Shown here one piece after another: positions 49,641 to 61,802 of a stretch of DNA of 64,000 nucleotides. A program made the translations under genes and the position numbers. Position 1 is the first letter of the stretch, and the number at the start of each line of letters is the position of its first letter. A model generated the notes under the pieces. That model saw only the letters and a list, made by a program, of their open reading frames with translations, did no database searches and was not told the DNA's origin. Source of the DNA: Mobula hypostoma (taxonomy: Eukaryota). The stretch lies in assembly GCF_963921235.1 (NCBI RefSeq), contig NC_086097.1, positions 78,122,001 through 78,186,000 of the forward strand. Reading direction: 5' to 3'.

Positions 49641-50430
49641 TCCTTACAAATCAGGCCAGGTTATAAGTTGAACAGTTTCTGAGATAATCTTTCATTTAAT
49701 CATTTGAGTCCCACTAACAGCTACAATTTGCCACCATTAAAATAAAAACAACAAAATCTTACATTATCTACAAAAAACTAGATAATGTTATTAAACGCAC
49801 CTTGGATTTTTCCATGATTACCTGCAAAACTAGGACCAAGTGGAAATATTATTCTGTAACAGCTGCAGCTGTATTCAAAGGAACTTTGCTCAAGACGTAA
49901 GTGTAATAATTCCAAGAAAAAAATGCAGATGGTCGTAGATATGGCAAACAATCACAAATAAATATTTGGGTTTGAAAGTTAAATTGGTTACACGAAGTGC
50001 TTCAGAGCAAACATGATATTCTTTACTATAATAAATGTCTCTAATATTATCACAGGTTTCGTCTGTGGAAACAAAGTCAGAAGATGTGAGCCTCAACTTT
50101 TTCAGCCAGTTGCAGGCTTTTATGACTGTTTTCAAAAAAGGCACGTTCAGCTTCCTCTGAGAGCAGTCTATAGAAGTCAAGCATAACTTTCAGTTAAAAG
50201 AAGTACACAATAGGTGATGATAGTGCATTTGTAAAGCTTGATCAGAGATGAGAATAAATGAAATTGCACATCTTTCACTCAGTATCATGTACTTAAATCT
50301 ACATTCTTAACAAAATATTAGGACTTTCAAAACACTTTCCAATTACATATTTTTCAAGTTTAATCGCTGTTGTAATGGCCCATTTGTCCATGGATGGTTC
50401 TTCGCTCTGTGGTAGTGATGTTTGCTTATA

Positions 50431-50973: not shown

Positions 50974-51461
50974 TACTTCCAGAGTTTATAGACCAATGTG
51001 ATATAAAACTGCATGCTCACCTGCTTGTAACACAAGAGAGGAATTATGTTGGTTTACATCATGGCCATGGTAATCCTATGAAAATAGATTACTGTTAAGC
51101 AGAGTCATGCTGACATAATAAATGTACACATTTGTTTAGATTATGAGGACACTCAGTCCTCGTTTATTGTCATTTAGAAATGCATGCATTAAGAAATGAT
51201 ACAATGTTCCTACAGTATGATATCACAGAAACACAGGACAGACCAAGACTAAAACTGACAAAAACCACATAATTATAGCATATAGTTACAACAGTGCAAA
51301 GCAATACCGTAATTTGATAAAGAGCAGACCATGGGCACGGTAAAAAAAAGTCTCAAAGTCCCGATAGCCCCATCATTTCACGCAGACAGTAGAAGGGAGA
51401 AACTCTCCCTGCCATGAACCTCCAGCACCGCAAACTTACCAATGCAGCACCCTGGAAGCAA

Positions 51462-52239: not shown

Positions 52240-52510
52240 GAAAGACCCTTGTGTGAGGAGAGACAGGATTTCCCTAAAACGTTTTCACTAGAGTTTAGAA
52301 AAGTAGCACAAGATCTCACTGAAATGTACCAAATTTGGCTTGGAATCAATAGACTGGATACAGGGATATACATTTCCGCTGACTGAGTGTGAGGATGAGA
52401 ACTCATGGTCACGGTCCCAGGAATATGGGATAACATATTTAGATCTGACATGTGAGGAAATTCCATCATTGGAAGTATGCTGAAACTGGAATTCACTTCC
52501 ACACAGTGTT
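52240..52510 (+). mobile_element. Old CR1 3' fragment, left half (continues at 61803-61958)
   Basis: Ends tggaattcacttccacacagtgtt (WNSLPHSV); joined to 61803 it reads on in frame RDSYLLNEFKKDIKRCL. Confidence 0.75.
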
Positions 52511-55500
52511 CATCACCATCATCATCAAGTGCCGTGCCCACTTTGAGCTTTGACTGCCATGGCCCACACACACTTGTTTTGGGTCATGTGGATCAATTCA
52601 TTGGTATTCGTTTCCAGTTCTCTGGCTGCTGTCTCCATCATCATTTGTCTTTGTCTTCCTCTTGCTTCCTTCCCTTCAGTCTATCCCATAATTACCGTGC
52701 ATTCTAACTCCTCTTTCTTAATCACATGTCCAATGAAGTTACGTTGCCTTTTCATGATCTCATACATTGTTTCTCTTTTTGTGCTTGCTCTGTTCATGAA
52801 ATCCTCGTTAGATATTTGTTTTGTCCATGATATTCTTTGCATTCTCCTCAAAAACCACATTTCTGCTGCTTCAATTCGATTCCTCATGTTACTAGATATT
52901 GTCCAACATTCTGAGCCATAACATAACTGGATAAACGTAACATTTCAGTACTCTGAGGTGGGTTGTCATGCCTAGTTTAGTATTGGTCAGTATACTCTTC
53001 ATTCTTGTAAAGGTGTCTTTTGCCATCCCTATTCTTCTTTTGATGTCCATATCGCACCTGCCATCTGATCTCACCCAGCTTCCTAAGTAGCAAAAGTTCT
53101 GTACTTGTTTTATGTCTTCCCTATCTATTCTCAGCCTGCAGATAGAATTCTCCTCCTTTTTGGATATCACCATACATTCTGTCTTTTTGCAATTGATAGA
53201 TAGACCCATTTTTGCACTTTGTTCAACAATTATATCAATTAAGTTTTGCAGTTCTTTCTCCGTACTTGCAATTAACATAGTGTCACCTGCATATCTGAAA
53301 TTGATGTTTTCACCACCAACTTTGATTCCCAAGATGTCTCTTATTTTTTGTAATATTGTTTCACTGTACACATTAAATAAATCAGGGGAGAAAACATACC
53401 CTTGTCTAATGCCTTTCTTGATTTTTGTAAACTGACTCACTTCTCCATCTATTCTTACAGTGGCAGTTTGTTCCCTATACAGATTTCTGATTAAGCGGAG
53501 GTCTTTTGAATCTAGATCCAGAGTTCTCTGTAATACTTCAAATAACTTATTGTGCTTCACTTTAGCAAATGCTTTTGTGTAGTCGATAAAACAAACAAAC
53601 AAATCTTTTTGCACTTGAATAGCTCATTCTGATAATAACCTTAACATCAATATTGCGTTTCTTGTACCTTTGTCTTTCACAAAACCATATTGTTCTTTAC
53701 CTATTTCAGCATGTATCTTACTTTTAGCTCTTAGAAGCTATATCACCAAGATACTTCAAAATTCTTGGTGATAGAAACCATAGAAACCATAGAAACTACA
53801 GCACAGAAACAGGCCCTTTGGCCCTTCTTGGCTGTGCCGAACCATTTTCTGCCTAGTCCCACTGACCTGCACATGGACCATATCCCTCCATACACCTCCC
53901 ATCCATGTATCTGTCCAATTTATTCTTAAATGTTAAAAAAGAACCCACATTTACCACCTCGTCTGGCAGCTCATTCCATACTCCCACCACTCTCTGTGTG
54001 AAGAAGCCCCCACTAATGTTCCCTTTAAACATTTCCCCCCTCACCCTTAACCCATGTCCTCTGGTTTTTTTCTCCCCTTGCCTCAGTGGAAAAAGCCTGC
54101 TTGCATTCACTCGATCTATACCCATCATAATTTTATATACTTCTATCAAATCTCACCTCATTCTTCTACGCTCCAGGGAATAAAGTCCTAACCTATTCAA
54201 CCTTTCTCTGTAACTGAGTTTCTCAAGTCCCGGCAACATCCTTGTAAACCTTCTCTGCACTCTTTCAACCTTATTTATATCCTTCCTGTAATTTGGTGAC
54301 CAAAACTGAACACAATACTCCAGATTCGGCCTCACCAATGCCTTATACAACCTCATCATAACATTCCAGCTCTTATACTCAATACTTCGATTAATAAAGG
54401 CCAATGTACCAAAAGCTCTCGTTATGACCCTATCTACATGTGACGACACTTTTAGGGAATTTTGTATCTGTATTCCCAGATCCCTCTGTTCCACTGCATT
54501 CCTCAGTGCCTTACCATTAACCCTGTATGTTCTACGTTGGTTTGTCCTTCCAACGTGCAATACCTCACACTTGTCAGTATTAAACTCCATCTGCCATTTT
54601 TCAGCCCATTTTCCCAGCTGGTCCAAGTCCCTCTGCAGGCTCTGAAAACCTTCCTCACTGTCTACTACACCTCCAAACTTTGTATCATCAGCAAACTTGC
54701 TGATCCAATTTACCACATTATCATCCAGATCATTGATATAGATGACAAATAACAATGGACCCAGCACTGATCCCTGTGGCACACCACTAGTCACAGGCCT
54801 CCACTCAGAGAAGCAATTCTCTACCACCACTCTCTGGCTTCTTCCATCGAGCCAATGTCTAATCCAATTTACCACCTCTCCATGTATACCTAGCGACTGA
54901 ATTTTCCTAACTAACCTCCCATGCGGGACCTTGTCAAAGGTCTTACTGAAGTCCATGTAGACAATATCCACTGCCTTCCCTTCATCCACTTTCCTGGTAA
55001 CCTCCTCAAAAAACTCCAACAGATTGGTCAAACATGACCTACCATGCACAAAGCCATGTTGACTCTCCCTAATAAGCCCCTGTCTATCCAAATGCTTGTA
55101 GATTCTGTCTCTTAGTACTCCCTCCAATAATTTACCTACTACTGATGTTAAACTCACTGGCTTATAATTTCCCGGATTACTTTTCGATCCTTTTTTAAAC
55201 AACGGAACAACATGAGCCACTCTCCAATCCTCCGGCTCTTCACTCATAGACAGCGACATTTTAAATATTTCTGCCAGGGCCCCCGCAATTTCAACACTAG
55301 TCTCCTTCAAGGTCCGAGGGAACATTCTGTCAGGTCCCGGGGATTTATCCACTTTAATTTTCCTCAAGACAACAAGCACCTCCTCCTTTTCAATCTGTAC
55401 AGTTTCCATGGTCTCACTACTTGATTCCCTCAATTCCACAGATTTCATGCCAGCTTCCTTAGTAAATACAGACGCAAAAAACCTATTTAAGATCTCCCCC

Positions 55501-57828
55501 ATTTCCTTTGGTTCCGCACAAAGCCGACCACTCTGATCTTCAAGAGGACCAATTTTATCCCTTACAATCCTTTTGCTCTTAATATACTTGTAAAAGCTCT
55601 TTGGATTATCCTTCACTTTGACTGCCAAGTCTTCTTTTTGCCCTCCTGATTTCTTTCTTAAGTATATGACTCATGATATGACTCATTAAACTTATGGTCC
55701 TATGTAATTCACATTCTATTGCTCCAGGTTTCTTAGGAAGAGTGATAAATACTGATTTCTTCATCTCTTCTGGTAATATCCCAGTCTCATAAATGTTATT
55801 GATTAAATCAGTAACTATTTCAATTCCATAATCTTCAAGGGCGATAATTTGTTCTATTACTAATTCATCAGGACCTGCTGCCTTTCCTTTCTTCATCTTA
55901 TTTATTGCATTACGAACTTCAGATTGTAAAATACTTGGACCTTTAATGTTTTTCTTAATTTCTGGTTTTTCACCTCGATCGTCTTCAAACAATTCCCGAA
56001 TATACTCATTCCATCTGTTCAAAATCTCATCTTTTTCCATGATAATGGTACCGTCCTTTGCTTTCAAACATCCACCTGAAGAACAGAGCTTTTCACCAGT
56101 GATATTCTTGATTTGTTGATGTAACCTTTTTGGATCAGTGATAGGGATTCTTTCTATTTGCTCACATTCCTGGTTTAACCATTCTTCTTTGGCTTTTTGA
56201 CATGAGCTTTTAGCTTTTTTATCTAAGGACTTATATTCTGTAGGATTTGCTTTCTTCTGTCTCCTTTCTTCCATTAGATTTTTGATTTCATCTGTCATCC
56301 ATTTATTCTTTGTGCTTTTTTCTTTTTTAGGAATCACTGACATTGCTGATTCTACCAAGACATCCTTTAGAGAGTTAAATTTCATTTCTGCATGATTGCT
56401 ATCATCTTCAACAGGTTCTATTTCTAGACTTTGAAATCTATTCCTTACTTCAATTGTAAATTTTTGTCTTACATTTTCTTCTTTAATTAATTGCAAGTAG
56501 TCAAGGGATTGTTAAGGTTTTTGCTTCTTTGGTTTTTTAAGTTTTACTTTTACATGACATACTACTGGGTTATGGTCACTATTAAAGTCTGCACCTGGAT
56601 ATGTTTTGCATTGAGTTACTGAGTTTCTAAATCTTTGGTTTATAGTAATAAAGTCAATTTGATTTCTAGTGTTATCACCTGGACTTTTCCCGGTCCACAA
56701 ATGCCTTGGATGGTTTTTAAAGTAGGTATTCATAATGACCTGATTATTTATCTTGCACCATTCTACCCATTTCTCACCTCTTTCATTTCCTTCCCCAAAT
56801 TTTCCTAGGGTATTTCCATCAGCACCTTGTCCTACTATAGTATTTTGATCTCCCATGACAATAACAATATCTTGAGATTTGCATCCATTCTTTGCTTGTT
56901 CAAGCTCTTCGTAGAATTTATCTATATCCTCATTTGTTCCATCTGTTGTTGGTGCATATGCCTGTATAATTGCTAAATCAAATGGTTGTCTTTTGAATCT
57001 AACAAGGAGCACTCTTTCTGATATTGCCCTATGTCCTAAAACACTTTTTGCCATGTTTTCATCCATAAGAATTCCTACTCCATTAGTATGGGATGTTCCA
57101 CAAGAATAAATTAGTGTTTTATTTCTATTCTGACATGTTCCAGCACCTATCCAATGAACTTCACTAATTCCCATGATGTTAATCTTTAGTCCTTCCATTT
57201 CATTTATCACATTGTCCAATCTTCCTGCTTGATATAGGGTTCTTACATTCCAAGTGGCAATAATTTTCTATTGTGCTTCTTGAATTTTTTGAGCAGCAGC
57301 TTGATGACGGTCGGGGATCCCCTGCTGACCAGAATCAATCCTATCGAGCGAAACATTTTCAGAATTATCTTGAAGATCCTCTTGACATTGTTGTTGTGTG
57401 ATACATTTTGTGAGTTTGACCATGGTTTTCTTAGCAAATAGAATCTAGGAAACCTAGTATCTAGCAACGGTGGTTTGCTATTGCCTACAGTTGGGCGAAC
57501 TAAAGAAATCGCCATTTCTCTTCCCAAATGTTCATCCGCCTCTCCTATAGCTTCCCAAATGTTCATCCGCCTCTCCTATAGCCGTTGACATTTGAGGTCC
57601 TAGCTCATCTGCCTTCTCCGTCATAAGTTCAGTTACTGAACCTGCCAAATCTGCTGCTGGCCTTCGCTCATATCCTGAGCAGGAACCCTTGCAGGTGCTA
57701 CCATTCCAGGTCAGAGCTGCCCTGGGAGTAATGAATGACTAAGGGGTAACTCCACTTTCCCCAAAGCTCTGAAAGTCCCCAATCAGAGCCTCATCACCAG
57801 TTGCAGTTTAGAGTCATACCCAGGACTA
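52511..57828 (-). mobile_element. Near full-length RTE LINE (5' UTR, EN, RT, (GAT)n tail), split by a CR1
   Basis: ORF 56512-57219 (GISEVHW, QAYAPT, NQIDFI, SDH), ORF 55606-56496 (KAAGPD, HRTISLMSH), ORF 52892-53614 (FIDYTKAF, GIRQG..FSPDLFN, FCYLGS); tail catcaccatcatcatc at 52511-52526. Confidence 0.92.
53772..55664 (-). mobile_element. Young 5'-truncated CR1 LINE inserted in the RTE
   Basis: Open 491-aa ORF 54153-55628 with a complete RT (GVPQGSVLGP, KFADD) plus ORF 53853-54149 after a single stop; (GGTTTCTAT)n tail. Confidence 0.95.
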
Positions 57829-58251
57829 CTGATATCAAAGAACATTTTGTTTTAGTTTCAGGGAAATTAGATAATAAGTTAATGGTTTTTGCTCATTTGC
57901 ATGCCCCAAATATAGATGATCCAGGCTTTTTTGAATGTTTTTGTTTCACTTTTATCAAATTTAAGTTTAAGTTTATATTCTTTGGTTTTAGGAGGAGACT
58001 TCATCTGTTGTTTAGATCCTGTTTTAGATCGTTCTTCTTCTAAATGATTGACTTGTAGTAGATCTGCCTCCTTTATCCAATCTTTTCTAATGAAATGTGA
58101 TATTATTGATGTTTGGCGTAATGTGATATTATTGATGTTTGGCGTATTTTTGCATCCAACAGATAAACTCATTTTTTTCTCATGTTCATCATACGCATTC
58201 CAGGATTGATTATTTTTTTGTTGATAGCCAATTGATTCCATTGGTTCAATC
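57829..58251 (+). mobile_element. L1 ORF2 endonuclease fragment, antisense to the flanking RTE and SLC9C1 copy
   Basis: FVLVSGKLDNK..HAPNIDDPGFF, GGDF, LDPVLDRSS, IDVWR, FFSHVHHTHSRIDYFFVDSQLIPLVQS; includes a 26-bp tandem duplication at 58094-58145. Confidence 0.85.
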
Positions 58252-58447
58252 CCAATTCTTTTATTGCCTCTTGATAATTTCTCTCCACAATACTTCTCAG
58301 TTGCTGAGAGATCACTTTTTGGTCTGGAATGTGATCAATAAGATTACTAACATCCTCTTCTCCTACAATATATCCTTTTCCAATACCACATCCAAAGCAG
58401 AGTTGTTTGTTTAGCTTTTAGTTGAGAAGATGTATGAAGGATGGTAA

Positions 58448-58570
58448 CAGGAAAGGAATGGAGGGTTATGGGCTGAGTGCAGGTCGGTAGCACTAGGTGA
58501 GAGTAAGAGTTCGGCACGGACTAGAAGGGCCGAGATGGCCTTTTTCCGTACTGTGATTGTTATATGGTTA
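58448..58570 (+). mobile_element. Short CR1 3'-end insertion within the SLC9C1 copy
   Basis: Close match to the reverse complement of 63530-63663; removing it restores LLKII-LPSFIHLLN. Confidence 0.88.
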
Positions 58571-60179
58571 TATAATCTTTAAAAGCTGAAGAACCCTGGC
58601 AAGGTGTATCAAGCTGAAAATTCGAACCATACGAACCTTGTACTCACTACGATCAAAGAATTGATCAACTATGACATCAGCTGCTGCTAATGTGATGATG
58701 AATAGGTCAAACAGATTCCAATGATCAAGGAAATAGGATTTACGCACAGCAAGAATCTTCATAAGTGCTTCTGTTTATACATATTATGAAGAAAACATAA
58801 TTGGTCATTTGCAGTTCCAGAGCATACTGTATATTCATTTTGGGATGCATTCCAGGATGATTGGGAAGATATTTAGGATTACCAGTACATGAAAAACATT
58901 CAAATGCACTGTTGTATACCATACAATGACAATATTTTGAAATTCTGCCTTTGTATGGCTTGTATTTGTCCACTTTGACATTATACATCCAGTCTTTCAG
59001 CTTTTTCCTGATGGTAACATAAATTCCTTTGAGATCCCAGTGTTTCTTCACATCTATTACAGTCATAAATCTTCTGGAATCAATCATGTTCTCGGTGATA
59101 CTAATCAGCGTACGTGCAGCTTGACGGTTTAGCATATCAGCACTATATTGCCGCCAGTAACTTGTCTTTTAAGCCTTTAAAAGGCATATTTTGGCTTCTT
59201 CCATCATGTCATCTATCTCACGGAGGGAAGGCTCCCATGGAATATTTTTTTCACAGTCAGGGCAATGAACTGCTTTAGTGCTTGGCAAAATTTCATCAAT
59301 TTGAACATTTTTTTGTGACATTTGTATGGGTCATCAATTTGCACAACTTTTTCTGCAATTACCCGGTTTGCATCTACCAGGAATCTATCCATTTTCAATA
59401 AAGAAAATCTGTTGGCCTGACTTTCTCTGATACGCTGAATTGCACCGTACATAGCCATGCATTTAGGGGCTGGAATATCTCGAAGGCCCAAGGTATCGAT
59501 AATCCATTCCATGGCGGTGCCATTGATTAGCAGTGTCAATAATACAGACCCCAATACATGCAGCAATATCTTGTTTCTGACATTCACTTCATCAGGTCCT
59601 TCCAAATGATATGCCATAAGAGATAAACTTAGAGTGAAAGCACCTTTTGTACCACTTCAGATGCAAACAGCTCCCCAGCGCCAATTGAAACCATAGCCCA
59701 GATGTTTTAACAATAGTGCCAAGCCCACGATAATTATCAAGCGTATATTATTTATTCCAAACTAAAGTACAATAATGAAAAAGCCATCAGTGATGGACAT
59801 ATGTTCCAATGTTTTTTGTGATATGACAACTCCAACAATCATGAAGATGAGAGAATTTCCTAGATATGTTAGCATTTCCCAAGAGCGCAATAAGAACACC
59901 TCAGTCTTTGGGCTGAAACTCACTGTTTCCATAAAGAGCCCCATAAATGTAACAGATATCACACCCAATATACCAACCCATTCACCGACATGGAACGCTA
60001 TGTAAGTATTTGCCAAACTGATCGTTATCTCCATTACCCCATCATTAAAGACATAGGTTAGGCAAAACATGGTGATTTTGACCATTATATATCCAAATAC
60101 TGGGCTTACAAACACCTTTAGCATCAGTCTTATAGCAAGTTCAACAGCTTCAACATCATGTGGTTCAAGAGCAAGTTCT

Positions 60180-61118
60180 AATGAAATTGAAATTTTAATT
60201 CAAAAAGGGAAAATGAAAAAATTTAGTTCTTGTATGTATAATTTGATTCAAAAACAGACAAAGAATCCATAAACAAGGAATCCATAAGTCAAAACAAAAA
60301 TGGGAAACAGATCTGAATATTAATATTGATGAAACAAATTGGTCAAGACTGTGTCTTGACAGTATGACAAATACAATAAATGTTCGACTTAGATTAGTAC
60401 AATATAACTTTTTACACCAATTATATATTACACCACAAAAAATAAATAGATTAAATTCAAATCTATCTGATAAATGCTTTCGGTGTAATCAAGAAATTGG
60501 TACTTTCTTACATTCTACTTGGTCTTGTTTTGAAATTCAACCCTTTTGGATAAATTTAAGAGTCTTATTGGAACAAATTACTGGAACTCAACTTCCACAT
60601 AACCCTGTATTATTTCTACTAGGTGATATTGAAGGGATAAAGCCGAAACTTAAATTGAATAAATATCAGAAAGAATTTATGAAAATTGCATTGGCAGTAG
60701 CTAAGAAGACTATAGCAGTTACTTGGAAATCTGATTCGTATTTAAGTATGAATCGTTGGAACAATGAAATGGCTAGTTCTATTCCACTTGAAAAAATTAC
60801 TTATAATTTGAGATAAATATGAAACATTTTTGAATATTTGGCGCCCTTATTTACAAAAGATAGGATGGCATATTTAATTGCTCCGATAAAGATCTTGGTC
60901 CCTTGGGGAAACTAACGAATAAGTATACTAAACTTATTTTGAATCCCATGGAGCATGTGGAAACCTTCCAATACCCAGGCGGTTCTTTTTTTCTTTCTTT
61001 CTTTTCTTTTTTAGGTAGGACTATATATGGAGGGGGAGGGTTAAGGGGAGGGGGAGGAGGGTAGATATTATCTTTCCATGTATTCATTTTGAAAACTTAA
61101 TAAAAATTATATTAAAAA
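60180..61118 (+). mobile_element. 5'-truncated L1 with 13-bp TSD inserted in the SLC9C1 copy
   Basis: ORF 60364-60816 with CFRC...FLHSTWSC; AATAAA + A tail; TSD aagagcaagttct at 60167-60179 and 61119-61131; removal restores FEVF*ELALEPHDVE. Confidence 0.95.
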
Positions 61119-61802
61119 AAGAGCAAGTTCTCAAAAGACTTCAAACATGGCAATAGCAGTTCCATCATTCAGCAATGATTCCCCTTCAATCAATAGAGTA
61201 AGCATTTTCGATGCACCTAGTTTCTAAGCAGAGCGACAGCTGTAATAGGGTCAGTGCAGGCAAGCATTGACCCAAACGTCACACCAACGTGCCAATCCCA
61301 GTTGAATGTGTAAACCTTGACAGCCAAAACAGCAATCATTGCAGCACTCAGGACCAAACCGGGACCAGCCAAAAGCACCACCTGGGAAAGTGACTTCAAA
61401 AATACGTGAGATTCAATTTCAAATGCACTGCTGAATATCAAAACTCGCATAAATGTATGAATAAGCAGCAATGGGTCAATTTGTGCAATGATTTCCCTGT
61501 ACCTTTGCACCAATGTATACTTGGTACTTAATGTTCCAAAAGCAATACCGAATATGTAGAGAACTACAGTGTGTGGAAGTTTTACTCCCTTTAGCAGAGT
61601 TCTGATCACAGCTCCGAATAGAAGAGTTCCAAAGATGAAGAGAATGATGTGAGACAGATCTTGAGCGATGATTCTGAAGTTGCTACCTTTAAACCCCAAA
61701 TGTGCCATAAGCGGGAGTCGTGGACATGTTGCTCAATTTAACACTTGTCGTGGCATACTCTGGGCGTAGATATTGATCAAGTGAATATAGTCACACACTG
61801 TT

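What the first reader, a model, noticed from the sequence alone, without database searches (positions are those of the whole stretch)
58200..58300. SLC9C1/L1 junction looks like splicing into a cryptic antisense-L1 exon
Seen: on the minus strand the junction is ...AAAGAATTGG|GATTGAACCAATGG; on the plus strand the L1 fragment stops exactly at LIPLVQ-S (caatc). Known: related L1 endonucleases usually continue S-C-x-Y here. A TCC TGY continuation would read RCAG|GATTG on the antisense strand, an AG acceptor at the breakpoint. Inference: a phase-1 SLC9C1 donor after KELG was spliced to this cryptic acceptor. The fused frame continues LNQWNQLAINKKIINPGMRMMNMRKK* and would encode an exchanger + voltage sensor without the cyclic-nucleotide-binding domain.
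Basis: partly seen in the sequence, partly recalled or inferred. Interest (0 to 1): 0.7.

Follow-up and report, generated by a model that had tools for sequence, protein, structure and literature searches.

The report
Spliced sperm-gene fossil riding an RTE
A dead copy of the sperm exchanger gene SLC9C1 in a ray genome stops exactly at an exon end and runs on into a backwards LINE-1 fragment at a splice-acceptor signal, so it likely preserves a mis-spliced RNA that a different jumping gene (likely an RTE) at its tail pasted into the genome, a known kind of accident that here has an unusual driver.

Summary
The junction is real and both sequence checks pass. The intact parent gene (G000:C45) has an exon ending AAGAATTGG|GTGAGT exactly at the break, and 26 of 29 L1 relatives read AG at that point on the antisense strand. 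A chance joint of this kind has p of about 1e-4 to 1e-3. The break is part of one insertion, about 6.3 kb at origin: an 83-base inverted 5' piece, 18 spliced exons, 423 bases of antisense L1 and a full-length RTE-type LINE ending in (GAT)n. One 11-base target-site duplication flanks the whole, and there is no poly(A), so the RTE likely drove it. The L1/RTE source is absent from the parent's 41.5-kb intron, its longest, and I found none elsewhere in the assembly: a lost allele or trans-splicing. The protein reading fails today, with 5 stops, 6 frameshifts and 2 insertions upstream, and 20 of 29 L1 copies would stop 3 codons after the splice. It works like human mRNA/LINE-1 5' chimeras. The scan noted this insert and other RTE 5' transductions in this genome before.

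The parts
61792..61802 (-). 5' copy of the target-site duplication (AACAGTGTGTG)
   Evidence: 10 of 11 match to 52510-52500; 47 of 200000 random boundaries do as well
61709..61791 (+). Inverted 5' piece of the SLC9C1 RNA (twin-priming-like); 38 bases of the parent are missing between it and the sense part
   Evidence: 61727-61790 matches parent C45:54336534-54336597 at 94%, in the opposite orientation; 61709-61726 not found in the 400 kb of parent region
58252..61708 (-). Processed SLC9C1 copy: 18 exons joined, from the parent's MTHLG start to KELG (exchanger plus voltage sensor, no cyclic-nucleotide domain); pseudogene
   Evidence: exons 89-98% identical to the parent; dS 0.070, dN 0.063; 5 stops and 6 frameshifts
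60180..61131 (+). Later insertion: 3' piece of another L1-like family with an A-rich tail and its own duplication
   Evidence: 952 bases; AGAACTTGCTCTT on both sides
58450..58572 (.). Later insertion: 123-base short repeat (SINE-like; label from recall)
58251..58252 (-). Splice-type junction: parent donor TGG|GTGAGT joined to the antisense-L1 acceptor TTCACAG|G
57829..58251 (-). Cryptic exon start: antisense fragment of an L1-like endonuclease region (the L1 itself reads on +), with a private 26-base tandem duplication at 58095-58146
58169..58251 (-). In-frame tail of the fused reading frame (26 codons and a stop)
   Evidence: only 9 of 29 family copies read past 3 codons
52511..57828 (-). Full-length RTE-type LINE (about 3.4 kb without the nested element): exact family 5' end, endonuclease, reverse transcriptase, (GAT)n tail; no duplication of its own
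53733..55673 (-). Later insertion inside the RTE: another LINE (CR1-like; label from recall)
52500..52510 (-). 3' copy of the target-site duplication (AACACTGTGTG), directly after the RTE tail; single-copy DNA follows

Best explanation
This is a dead retro-insertion whose SLC9C1 part ends exactly at a splice donor and continues at an acceptor-type AG in an antisense L1 fragment, likely because the parent pre-mRNA was mis-spliced into an L1 that carried a full-length RTE, and the RTE's reverse transcriptase then likely copied the whole RNA from its own (GAT)n tail. Shown: 17 introns removed; exact donor; family AG; inverted 5' piece; complete RTE; no poly(A); one duplication around everything; matching ages; no coding capacity now. 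Inferred: (1) the joint was made by the spliceosome; (2) the L1 and RTE sat in the 41.5-kb intron after KELG, on an allele or segment since lost; (3) the RTE protein primed at the tail, and a second priming near the RNA's 5' end flipped 83 bases; (4) the copy then decayed and took three more insertions. The RNA would have encoded an exchanger plus voltage sensor without the cyclic-nucleotide domain, but nothing shows it was translated or useful.
For: Donor and acceptor; loose ends in independent contigs read the parent intron (X1, X7) and the L1 continuation TGTGAATATAAAGAAATTG (X7) at this spot. Chance 6.6e-5 to 4.6e-4 before any microhomology bias. Whole-insert duplication: 10 of 11, null 47 of 200000. 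Family RTEs have a 9-16-base duplication of their own in 12 of 14 complete copies; this one has none (best score 4). The 11-base length fits the RTE range of 7-15, mostly 10-12 (PMC6007223, passage). No AATAAA/ATTAAA in the L1 exon and no poly(A). Ages agree: RTE 0.033 (non-CpG) to 0.040 from its majority, retrocopy branch about 0.035-0.041 (half of dS; two thirds of dN), L1 piece somewhat older at 0.049-0.060. Human parallels end at donors, have one duplication around the whole and follow long introns (PMC13174262, section 13).
Against: The source is missing. There is no L1 of this family in the intron, and no L1/RTE junction elsewhere: of 16 pattern hits only the window has L1 upstream, and neither of the 2 non-self hits to the fragment's private variants is a close copy. 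Two nested elements must both have been lost. The RTE in a later parent intron (C45:54543390-54548216) is not the source: it shares 3 of 114 derived sites. The acceptor is only middling on a crude matrix from 18 parent introns: score 0.3, rank about 33 of 228 AGs, native range -1.9 to 16.2. The duplication has one mismatch, and ACACT after the tail also matches the next five L1 bases. 2 of 14 family copies lack a clear duplication anyway. 5' inversion is described for L1 (PMC2912911, passages); my searches listed no RTE case. RTE clade was not tested with a tree.
Confidence: 0.55

Rival explanations
1. Trans-splicing: the KELG donor, left unpaired by a very long intron, was spliced to a separate RNA that read through an antisense L1 into an RTE; the RTE then copied the chimera.
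For: No source in the parent intron. That intron is the longest of 25 (41,493 bases, next 22,718). In human, 15 of 17 mRNA/LINE-1 chimeras lack an intronic source, and the next intron has a median of 48 kb (PMC13174262, section 13 and passages).
Against: The other locus should still exist, and none was found (only 40 candidates were scored in each DNA search). A long intron is also the likeliest place for a cis insertion.
Confidence: 0.2
2. Cis-splicing into a short-lived intronic L1 allele only. The RTE was joined during reverse transcription, when its enzyme reached the 5' end of its own RNA and jumped to the SLC9C1-L1 RNA.
For: Needs only one lost insertion. Explains why the L1/RTE junction exists nowhere else. 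The L1 age overlaps the retrocopy age within error (383 sites). Template jumping is described for R2 (PMC2912911, passage).
Against: The jump would land inside the L1 exon, with no poly(A) and no clear microhomology. TGAT, 9 bases before the RTE start, looks like an ordinary RTE target site, since family duplications usually begin with tail-like bases.
Confidence: 0.13
3. An ordinary L1-made processed pseudogene of the mis-spliced RNA; the RTE inserted later at its 3' end.
For: 5' inversion is an L1 hallmark (PMC2912911). L1-like elements with A-rich tails were active in this genome. ACACT after the RTE tail matches the next L1 bases.
Against: No poly(A), no polyadenylation signal and no further L1 after the RTE. 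The RTE has no duplication of its own and would have had to land within about 5 bases of the insert's end. Its age equals the retrocopy's.
Confidence: 0.07
4. No splicing: a genomic deletion or template switch at the GG microhomology joined a longer retrocopy to a neighbouring L1. A variant is re-splicing of a full retrocopy, whose next exon begins GT.
For: 2-base microhomology at the joint. The normal next exon starts GTCTTCTG.
Against: Hitting an exon end and an AG together has p of about 1e-4 to 7e-3 (plus my bias assumption). No downstream SLC9C1 exon or second retrocopy was found. The duplication encloses the L1 and the RTE.
Confidence: 0.04
5. A once-functional or still-used retrogene or isoform for a cAMP-insensitive exchanger.
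For: The sense part starts at the parent's ATG and ran to an in-frame stop; the domain cut falls between the voltage sensor and the cyclic-nucleotide domain.
Against: 5 stops, 6 frameshifts and 2 insertions; overall dN/dS about 0.9; 66 of 106 amino-acid differences map to the copy. The acceptor is gone from the parent locus.
Confidence: 0.01

Closest known systems
Human mRNA/LINE-1 5'-transduction chimeras (Law and Burns, PMC13174262; section 13 read whole, plus passages)
   Same: Host exons end at a splice donor; sense, near-full-length LINE behind them; one duplication around the whole; long next intron; source usually missing. In RAP1GDS1 the acceptor lies upstream of the element.
   Different: The driver here is an RTE-type LINE with a (GAT)n tail, not LINE-1 with poly(A). 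The acceptor comes from a third element (antisense L1, 423 bases upstream of the driver). 18 exons (2.4 kb coding) are carried rather than the first few. The 5' end is inverted. The host is a cartilaginous fish.
SVA_F1 (MAST2 exon 1) and chimpanzee pt_SVA_D6 (STK40 exon 1) exon trapping (PMC6139936, passages)
   Same: Exon of a testis-expressed gene acquired by splicing; the acceptor may come from sequence outside the canonical element or from an extinct source.
   Different: Those founded subfamilies of 84-94 copies and are moved by L1 in trans. This one is single-copy and rides an autonomous element.
L1-made processed pseudogenes with 5' inversion by twin priming (PMC2912911, passages)
   Same: Introns removed; inverted 5' segment; short microhomology at the 5' boundary; flanking duplication.
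   Different: No poly(A); the 3' end is another LINE clade's tail; the 3' third of the gene is replaced by a cryptic exon.
SLC9C1 (sNHE/NHE10) (PMC13218627, passages; homologues P0001-P0014)
   Same: The parent keeps the exchanger, voltage-sensor and cyclic-nucleotide exons.
   Different: The window copy lacks the last 8 exons and is disabled.

Membership tests
mRNA/LINE-1 5'-transduction chimera | Host part ends at a splice donor | tested here: met
   AAGAATTGG|GTGAGT
mRNA/LINE-1 5'-transduction chimera | Splice acceptor at the joint | tested here: met
   26 of 29 L1 copies; middling matrix score; lies in an antisense L1, not in the driver
mRNA/LINE-1 5'-transduction chimera | One target-site duplication around the whole chimera | tested here: met
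   10 of 11 bases, null 47 of 200000; empty site not seen
mRNA/LINE-1 5'-transduction chimera | Driver is a sense LINE-1 with a poly(A) tail | tested here: not met
   The sense element ends in (GAT)n and belongs to another family: works like this class, not a member
mRNA/LINE-1 5'-transduction chimera | Long intron after the last exon; source often missing | tested here: met
   41,493 bases, longest of 25; source not found
L1-made processed pseudogene | Introns removed | tested here: met
   17 introns absent
L1-made processed pseudogene | Poly(A) tail before the 3' duplication | tested here: not met
RTE-clade LINE (52511-57828) | Endonuclease and reverse transcriptase in a short (about 3.4 kb) element | tested here: met
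   Pfam PF03372 and PF00078; length 3377
RTE-clade LINE (52511-57828) | Microsatellite 3' tail and 7-15-base duplications | tested here: met
   (GAT)n; 12 of 14 complete copies
RTE-clade LINE (52511-57828) | Placement in the RTE clade by an RT tree | not tested
   Named homologues are 'craniofacial development protein 2-like'; that this label marks RTE/BovB endonucleases is recalled
RTE-clade LINE (52511-57828) | T-stretch about 10 bases upstream of the duplication (PMC6007223) | tested here: not met
   The flank reads GTAAATAGGAATCCCT; the duplication starts with A, as the paper reports for many animal RTEs, where the T excess is slight
L1-clade LINE (57829-58252) | ORF1 of L1 type, endonuclease-RT ORF2, A-rich tail | tested here: inconclusive
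   Family copies: Tnp_22_dsRBD E 0.0039 and endonuclease E 0.0094, both below cut-off; RVT_1 E 9e-31; A-rich tail, most with AATAAA; no tree
HDV-like 5' ribozyme of RTE/R2 elements | Nested double pseudoknot starting at the element's first base | tested here: inconclusive
   No ribozyme family among 8 Rfam matches at E<=10; my unvalidated descriptor found no fit at the 5' end
Functional retrogene | Open frame and purifying selection | tested here: not met

The most novel reading that the evidence does not exclude
A fossil of trans-splicing outside mammals: the SLC9C1 donor before its longest intron was spliced to an unrelated RNA whose acceptor came from an antisense L1. An RTE enzyme, a clade thought to be strict about its own 3' end, then copied 2.4 kb of host coding sequence and did so by twin priming. 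RTE elements would thus be a general route to near-complete, domain-truncated retrogenes in cartilaginous fish.
Probability: 0.2. Interest if true: 0.65.

Novelty: new variant of a known kind. Interest (0 to 1): 0.45.

Why it matters
Non-L1 LINEs are thought to need their own 3' end and so to spare host mRNAs (PMC3747384, passages). Splicing into an exon that ends in the element gets round this. Here it likely delivered an open, 18-exon frame cut at a domain boundary, the raw material for new genes, although this copy died. A 5' inversion on an RTE-tailed insert suggests that twin priming is not confined to L1. The insert may also record a lost allele that truncated a sperm-motility gene. It has no function now, and the class is known from human LINE-1 and SVA, which limits the score.

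Tried and rejected
Source in the parent region: 600 kb around the gene (C45:54.25-54.85 Mb, no N) was searched with the L1 piece by blastn. Subsets were also searched by nhmmer (200 kb; best E 6.9), by tblastn of family ORFs and with 3' parts of 8 family copies (400 kb). The only antisense hit to the piece is a 71% scrap at C45:54692611-54692498, too diverged to be the source. The parent's intronic RTE was rejected as source. Junction pattern: 16 hits, 15 without L1. Private-variant pattern: 3 hits, namely self, a 20-base chance match and a 71% L1. L1 fragment upstream of 29 other RTE 5' ends: 0 of 29. Local duplication around the RTE: best score 4. Distal duplication for the two family copies without one (L138, L139): nothing convincing in 1.5 kb. 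HDV-like ribozyme as the reason upstream RNA was kept (lead from earlier notes): no fit. Expression: no RNA holder listed; two RNA-guess runs had no cover of the unique exons; neither is evidence either way. One 171-base contig of organism C lay at 61358-61528 with 2 differences, too little to use. The empty site could not be seen: no relatives are held for G000. Literature searches listed no report of this retrocopy or of an RTE-driven multi-exon retrocopy. I judged most hits from titles and abstract starts only, the library lacks most subscription papers, and no supplements were read.

Full report
Setting. The window is G000:C1:78122001-78186000. The nearest named proteins are from rays and sharks. 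The minus strand from 61708 to 58252 is a processed copy of SLC9C1. Its parent lies at G000:C45, about 54.34-54.57 Mb, on the plus strand. The 18 copied exons join into an open 795-codon frame, and the 8 downstream exons, including the cyclic-nucleotide domain, are present. No second copy of the last two exons was found among 40 scored of 403 candidates.

Observation. The parent exon ends at C45:54473527 and is followed by GTGAGT; the match extends one base into the intron's G. I fetched 29 of the 39 non-self L1 hits listed. All 29 continue TGT on the plus strand, mostly TGTGAATATAAAGAAATTGC, and 26 of 29 give an AG exactly at the break on the antisense strand. Contigs of organisms A and B show the parent intron as a loose end at this spot, and one run of B shows the L1 continuation. 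Two B contigs match across the junction without a difference but are 2 letters short of the tool's bridging rule. On a matrix made from 18 parent acceptors the site scores 0.3, about rank 33 of 228 AGs per 3.4-kb locus, at the low end of the native range of -1.9 to 16.2: plausible, not strong. A random mRNA-L1 joint would fall at an exon end and at such an AG with p 6.6e-5, or 4.6e-4 for any AG (taking 25 exon ends and about 3,700 bases of mRNA).

Whole insert. The L1 piece spans 57829-58252 and does not resume after the RTE. At 57828 a LINE starts at the same 5' end as 29 other copies. It has endonuclease and RT domains and homologues labelled 'craniofacial development protein 2-like' (the link of that label to RTE is recalled), and it ends in (GAT)n at about 52511. 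Of 20 family copies fetched, 13 were complete enough to score. 11 of these have a 9-16-base duplication at their own ends, as does the copy in a later parent intron: 12 of 14. The window's copy has none. Instead, the 11 bases after its tail (52510-52500) match 10 of 11 the bases just outside the far end of the SLC9C1 copy (61802-61792); 47 of 200000 random boundaries do as well. Single-copy DNA follows. At the far end, 61727-61790 is parent RNA sequence in inverted orientation, with 38 bases missing before the sense part. This is the layout of twin-priming inversions described for L1 (PMC2912911, passages). There is no poly(A) and no AATAAA/ATTAAA in the L1 exon. Without three later insertions the unit is about 6.3 kb.

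Ages. Copy versus parent: dS 0.070 and dN 0.063. Of 106 amino-acid differences, 66 map to the copy, 34 to the parent and 6 are unresolved against five outgroup proteins, so the copy's branch is about 0.035-0.041. The RTE is 0.040 (0.033 without CpG) from the majority of 21 copies. The L1 piece is 0.060 (0.049) from the majority of 31 copies, on only 383-399 sites. The comparison copies were chosen by likeness to the window. The order L1, then RTE, then retroposition soon after is compatible with these values but not proven by them.

Missing source. The intron after KELG is 41,493 bases, the longest of 25 (the last 8 lengths are approximate), and holds no L1 of this family. Nor does the DNA out to C45:54.85 Mb, apart from a 71% scrap. 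The RTE at C45:54543390-54548216 shares 3 of 114 derived sites with the window's copy and has its own duplication. Genome-wide pattern searches for the L1/RTE junction and for private L1 variants found no source. This is the main gap. A lost allele, trans-splicing and a template jump cannot be told apart with one assembly.

Protein. The copy has 5 stops (parent codons 193, 332, 367, 530, 740), 6 frameshifting indels (the first at codon 163), one in-frame 3-base deletion, and insertions of 952 and 123 bases. Spliced to the L1 family sequence, 20 of 29 copies stop after 3 codons; the window's 26-residue tail needs a minority variant. The cut does fall between the voltage sensor and the cyclic-nucleotide domain, whose role in cAMP activation is reviewed in PMC13218627 (passages). 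That truncated protein is a possibility for the ancestral RNA only.

Comparison. The closest described class is the 17 human mRNA/LINE-1 5' chimeras of PMC13174262 (section 13 read whole): donors at the joint, one duplication around the whole, long next introns, and a source missing in 15 of 17. SVA exon trapping is similar (PMC6139936, passages). This insert fails membership of the LINE-1 class because the driver is RTE-like and has no poly(A), but it works like it. It differs in the driver, the third-party antisense acceptor, the 18-exon cargo and the inversion. Duplication length and first base fit RTE (PMC6007223, abstract and passages); the upstream T-stretch does not. PMC3136929 (passages) ties non-mammalian retrocopies to LINE-1 numbers, and the word 'shark' does not occur in it. 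PMC3774820 (passages) states that RTE elements can have 5' ribozymes; I found none here. Nine literature searches listed no such RTE case, within the limits of the library.

Earlier notes. After I had written down this reading, the scan's index showed a first-reader note on the same 9.3-kb insert and, unchecked notes on other RTE and CR1 inserts carrying host pieces in this genome. I tested only the first and the ribozyme lead.

Verdict. Splicing at the junction is likely (about 0.9), and an RTE-driven single insertion is likely (about 0.85). A lost cis source is favoured (0.55 for the full model). The copy is dead. It is a new variant of a known kind; interest 0.45.

Noticed in passing
G000:C45:54336500-54336732 and 54347350-54347578 (L106, L107): The parent's first coding exon is duplicated about 11 kb apart. 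Both copies lack the MDVLLN-type start of its orthologues in frame: there is a frame break shared with the retrocopy, and a short stretch around the old start is kept only in the retrocopy's inverted piece. The parent seems to start at MTHLG.
   Followed up: partly
G000:C45 parent SLC9C1: 34 of 106 amino-acid differences map to the parent branch, suggesting fast or relaxed evolution of SLC9C1 in this lineage. One intron has a GC donor (after 54421280).
   Followed up: no
G000:C45:54543390-54548216: A full-length sense RTE of the same family and age sits in a later SLC9C1 intron, with its own 10-base duplication; it is an independent insertion.
   Followed up: yes
window 51020-51075, 50090-50168 and near 49820 (minus strand): Short AG-bounded, exon-like stretches (the first also ends at GTGAG); possibly a host gene whose intron holds the insert. 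Not identified.
   Followed up: no
L140:186-303: An RTE copy with an inverted piece of its own sequence (family positions 595-711) directly upstream of its 5' end.
   Followed up: no
L139 (G000:C9:43419600-43425100): A complete RTE copy without a local duplication; a candidate for another 5' transduction longer than the 1.5 kb examined.
   Followed up: partly
window 57545-57610: A private 31-base tandem duplication in the RTE 5' region, like the 26-base one in the L1 piece at 58095-58146.
   Followed up: no
P0006: The 813-aa stingray protein model also lacks the cyclic-nucleotide domain, ends one exon earlier (QKVISQ-AFTGK) and contains a stretch that matches repeats; probably an annotation artefact, but its locus would be worth checking.
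   Followed up: no
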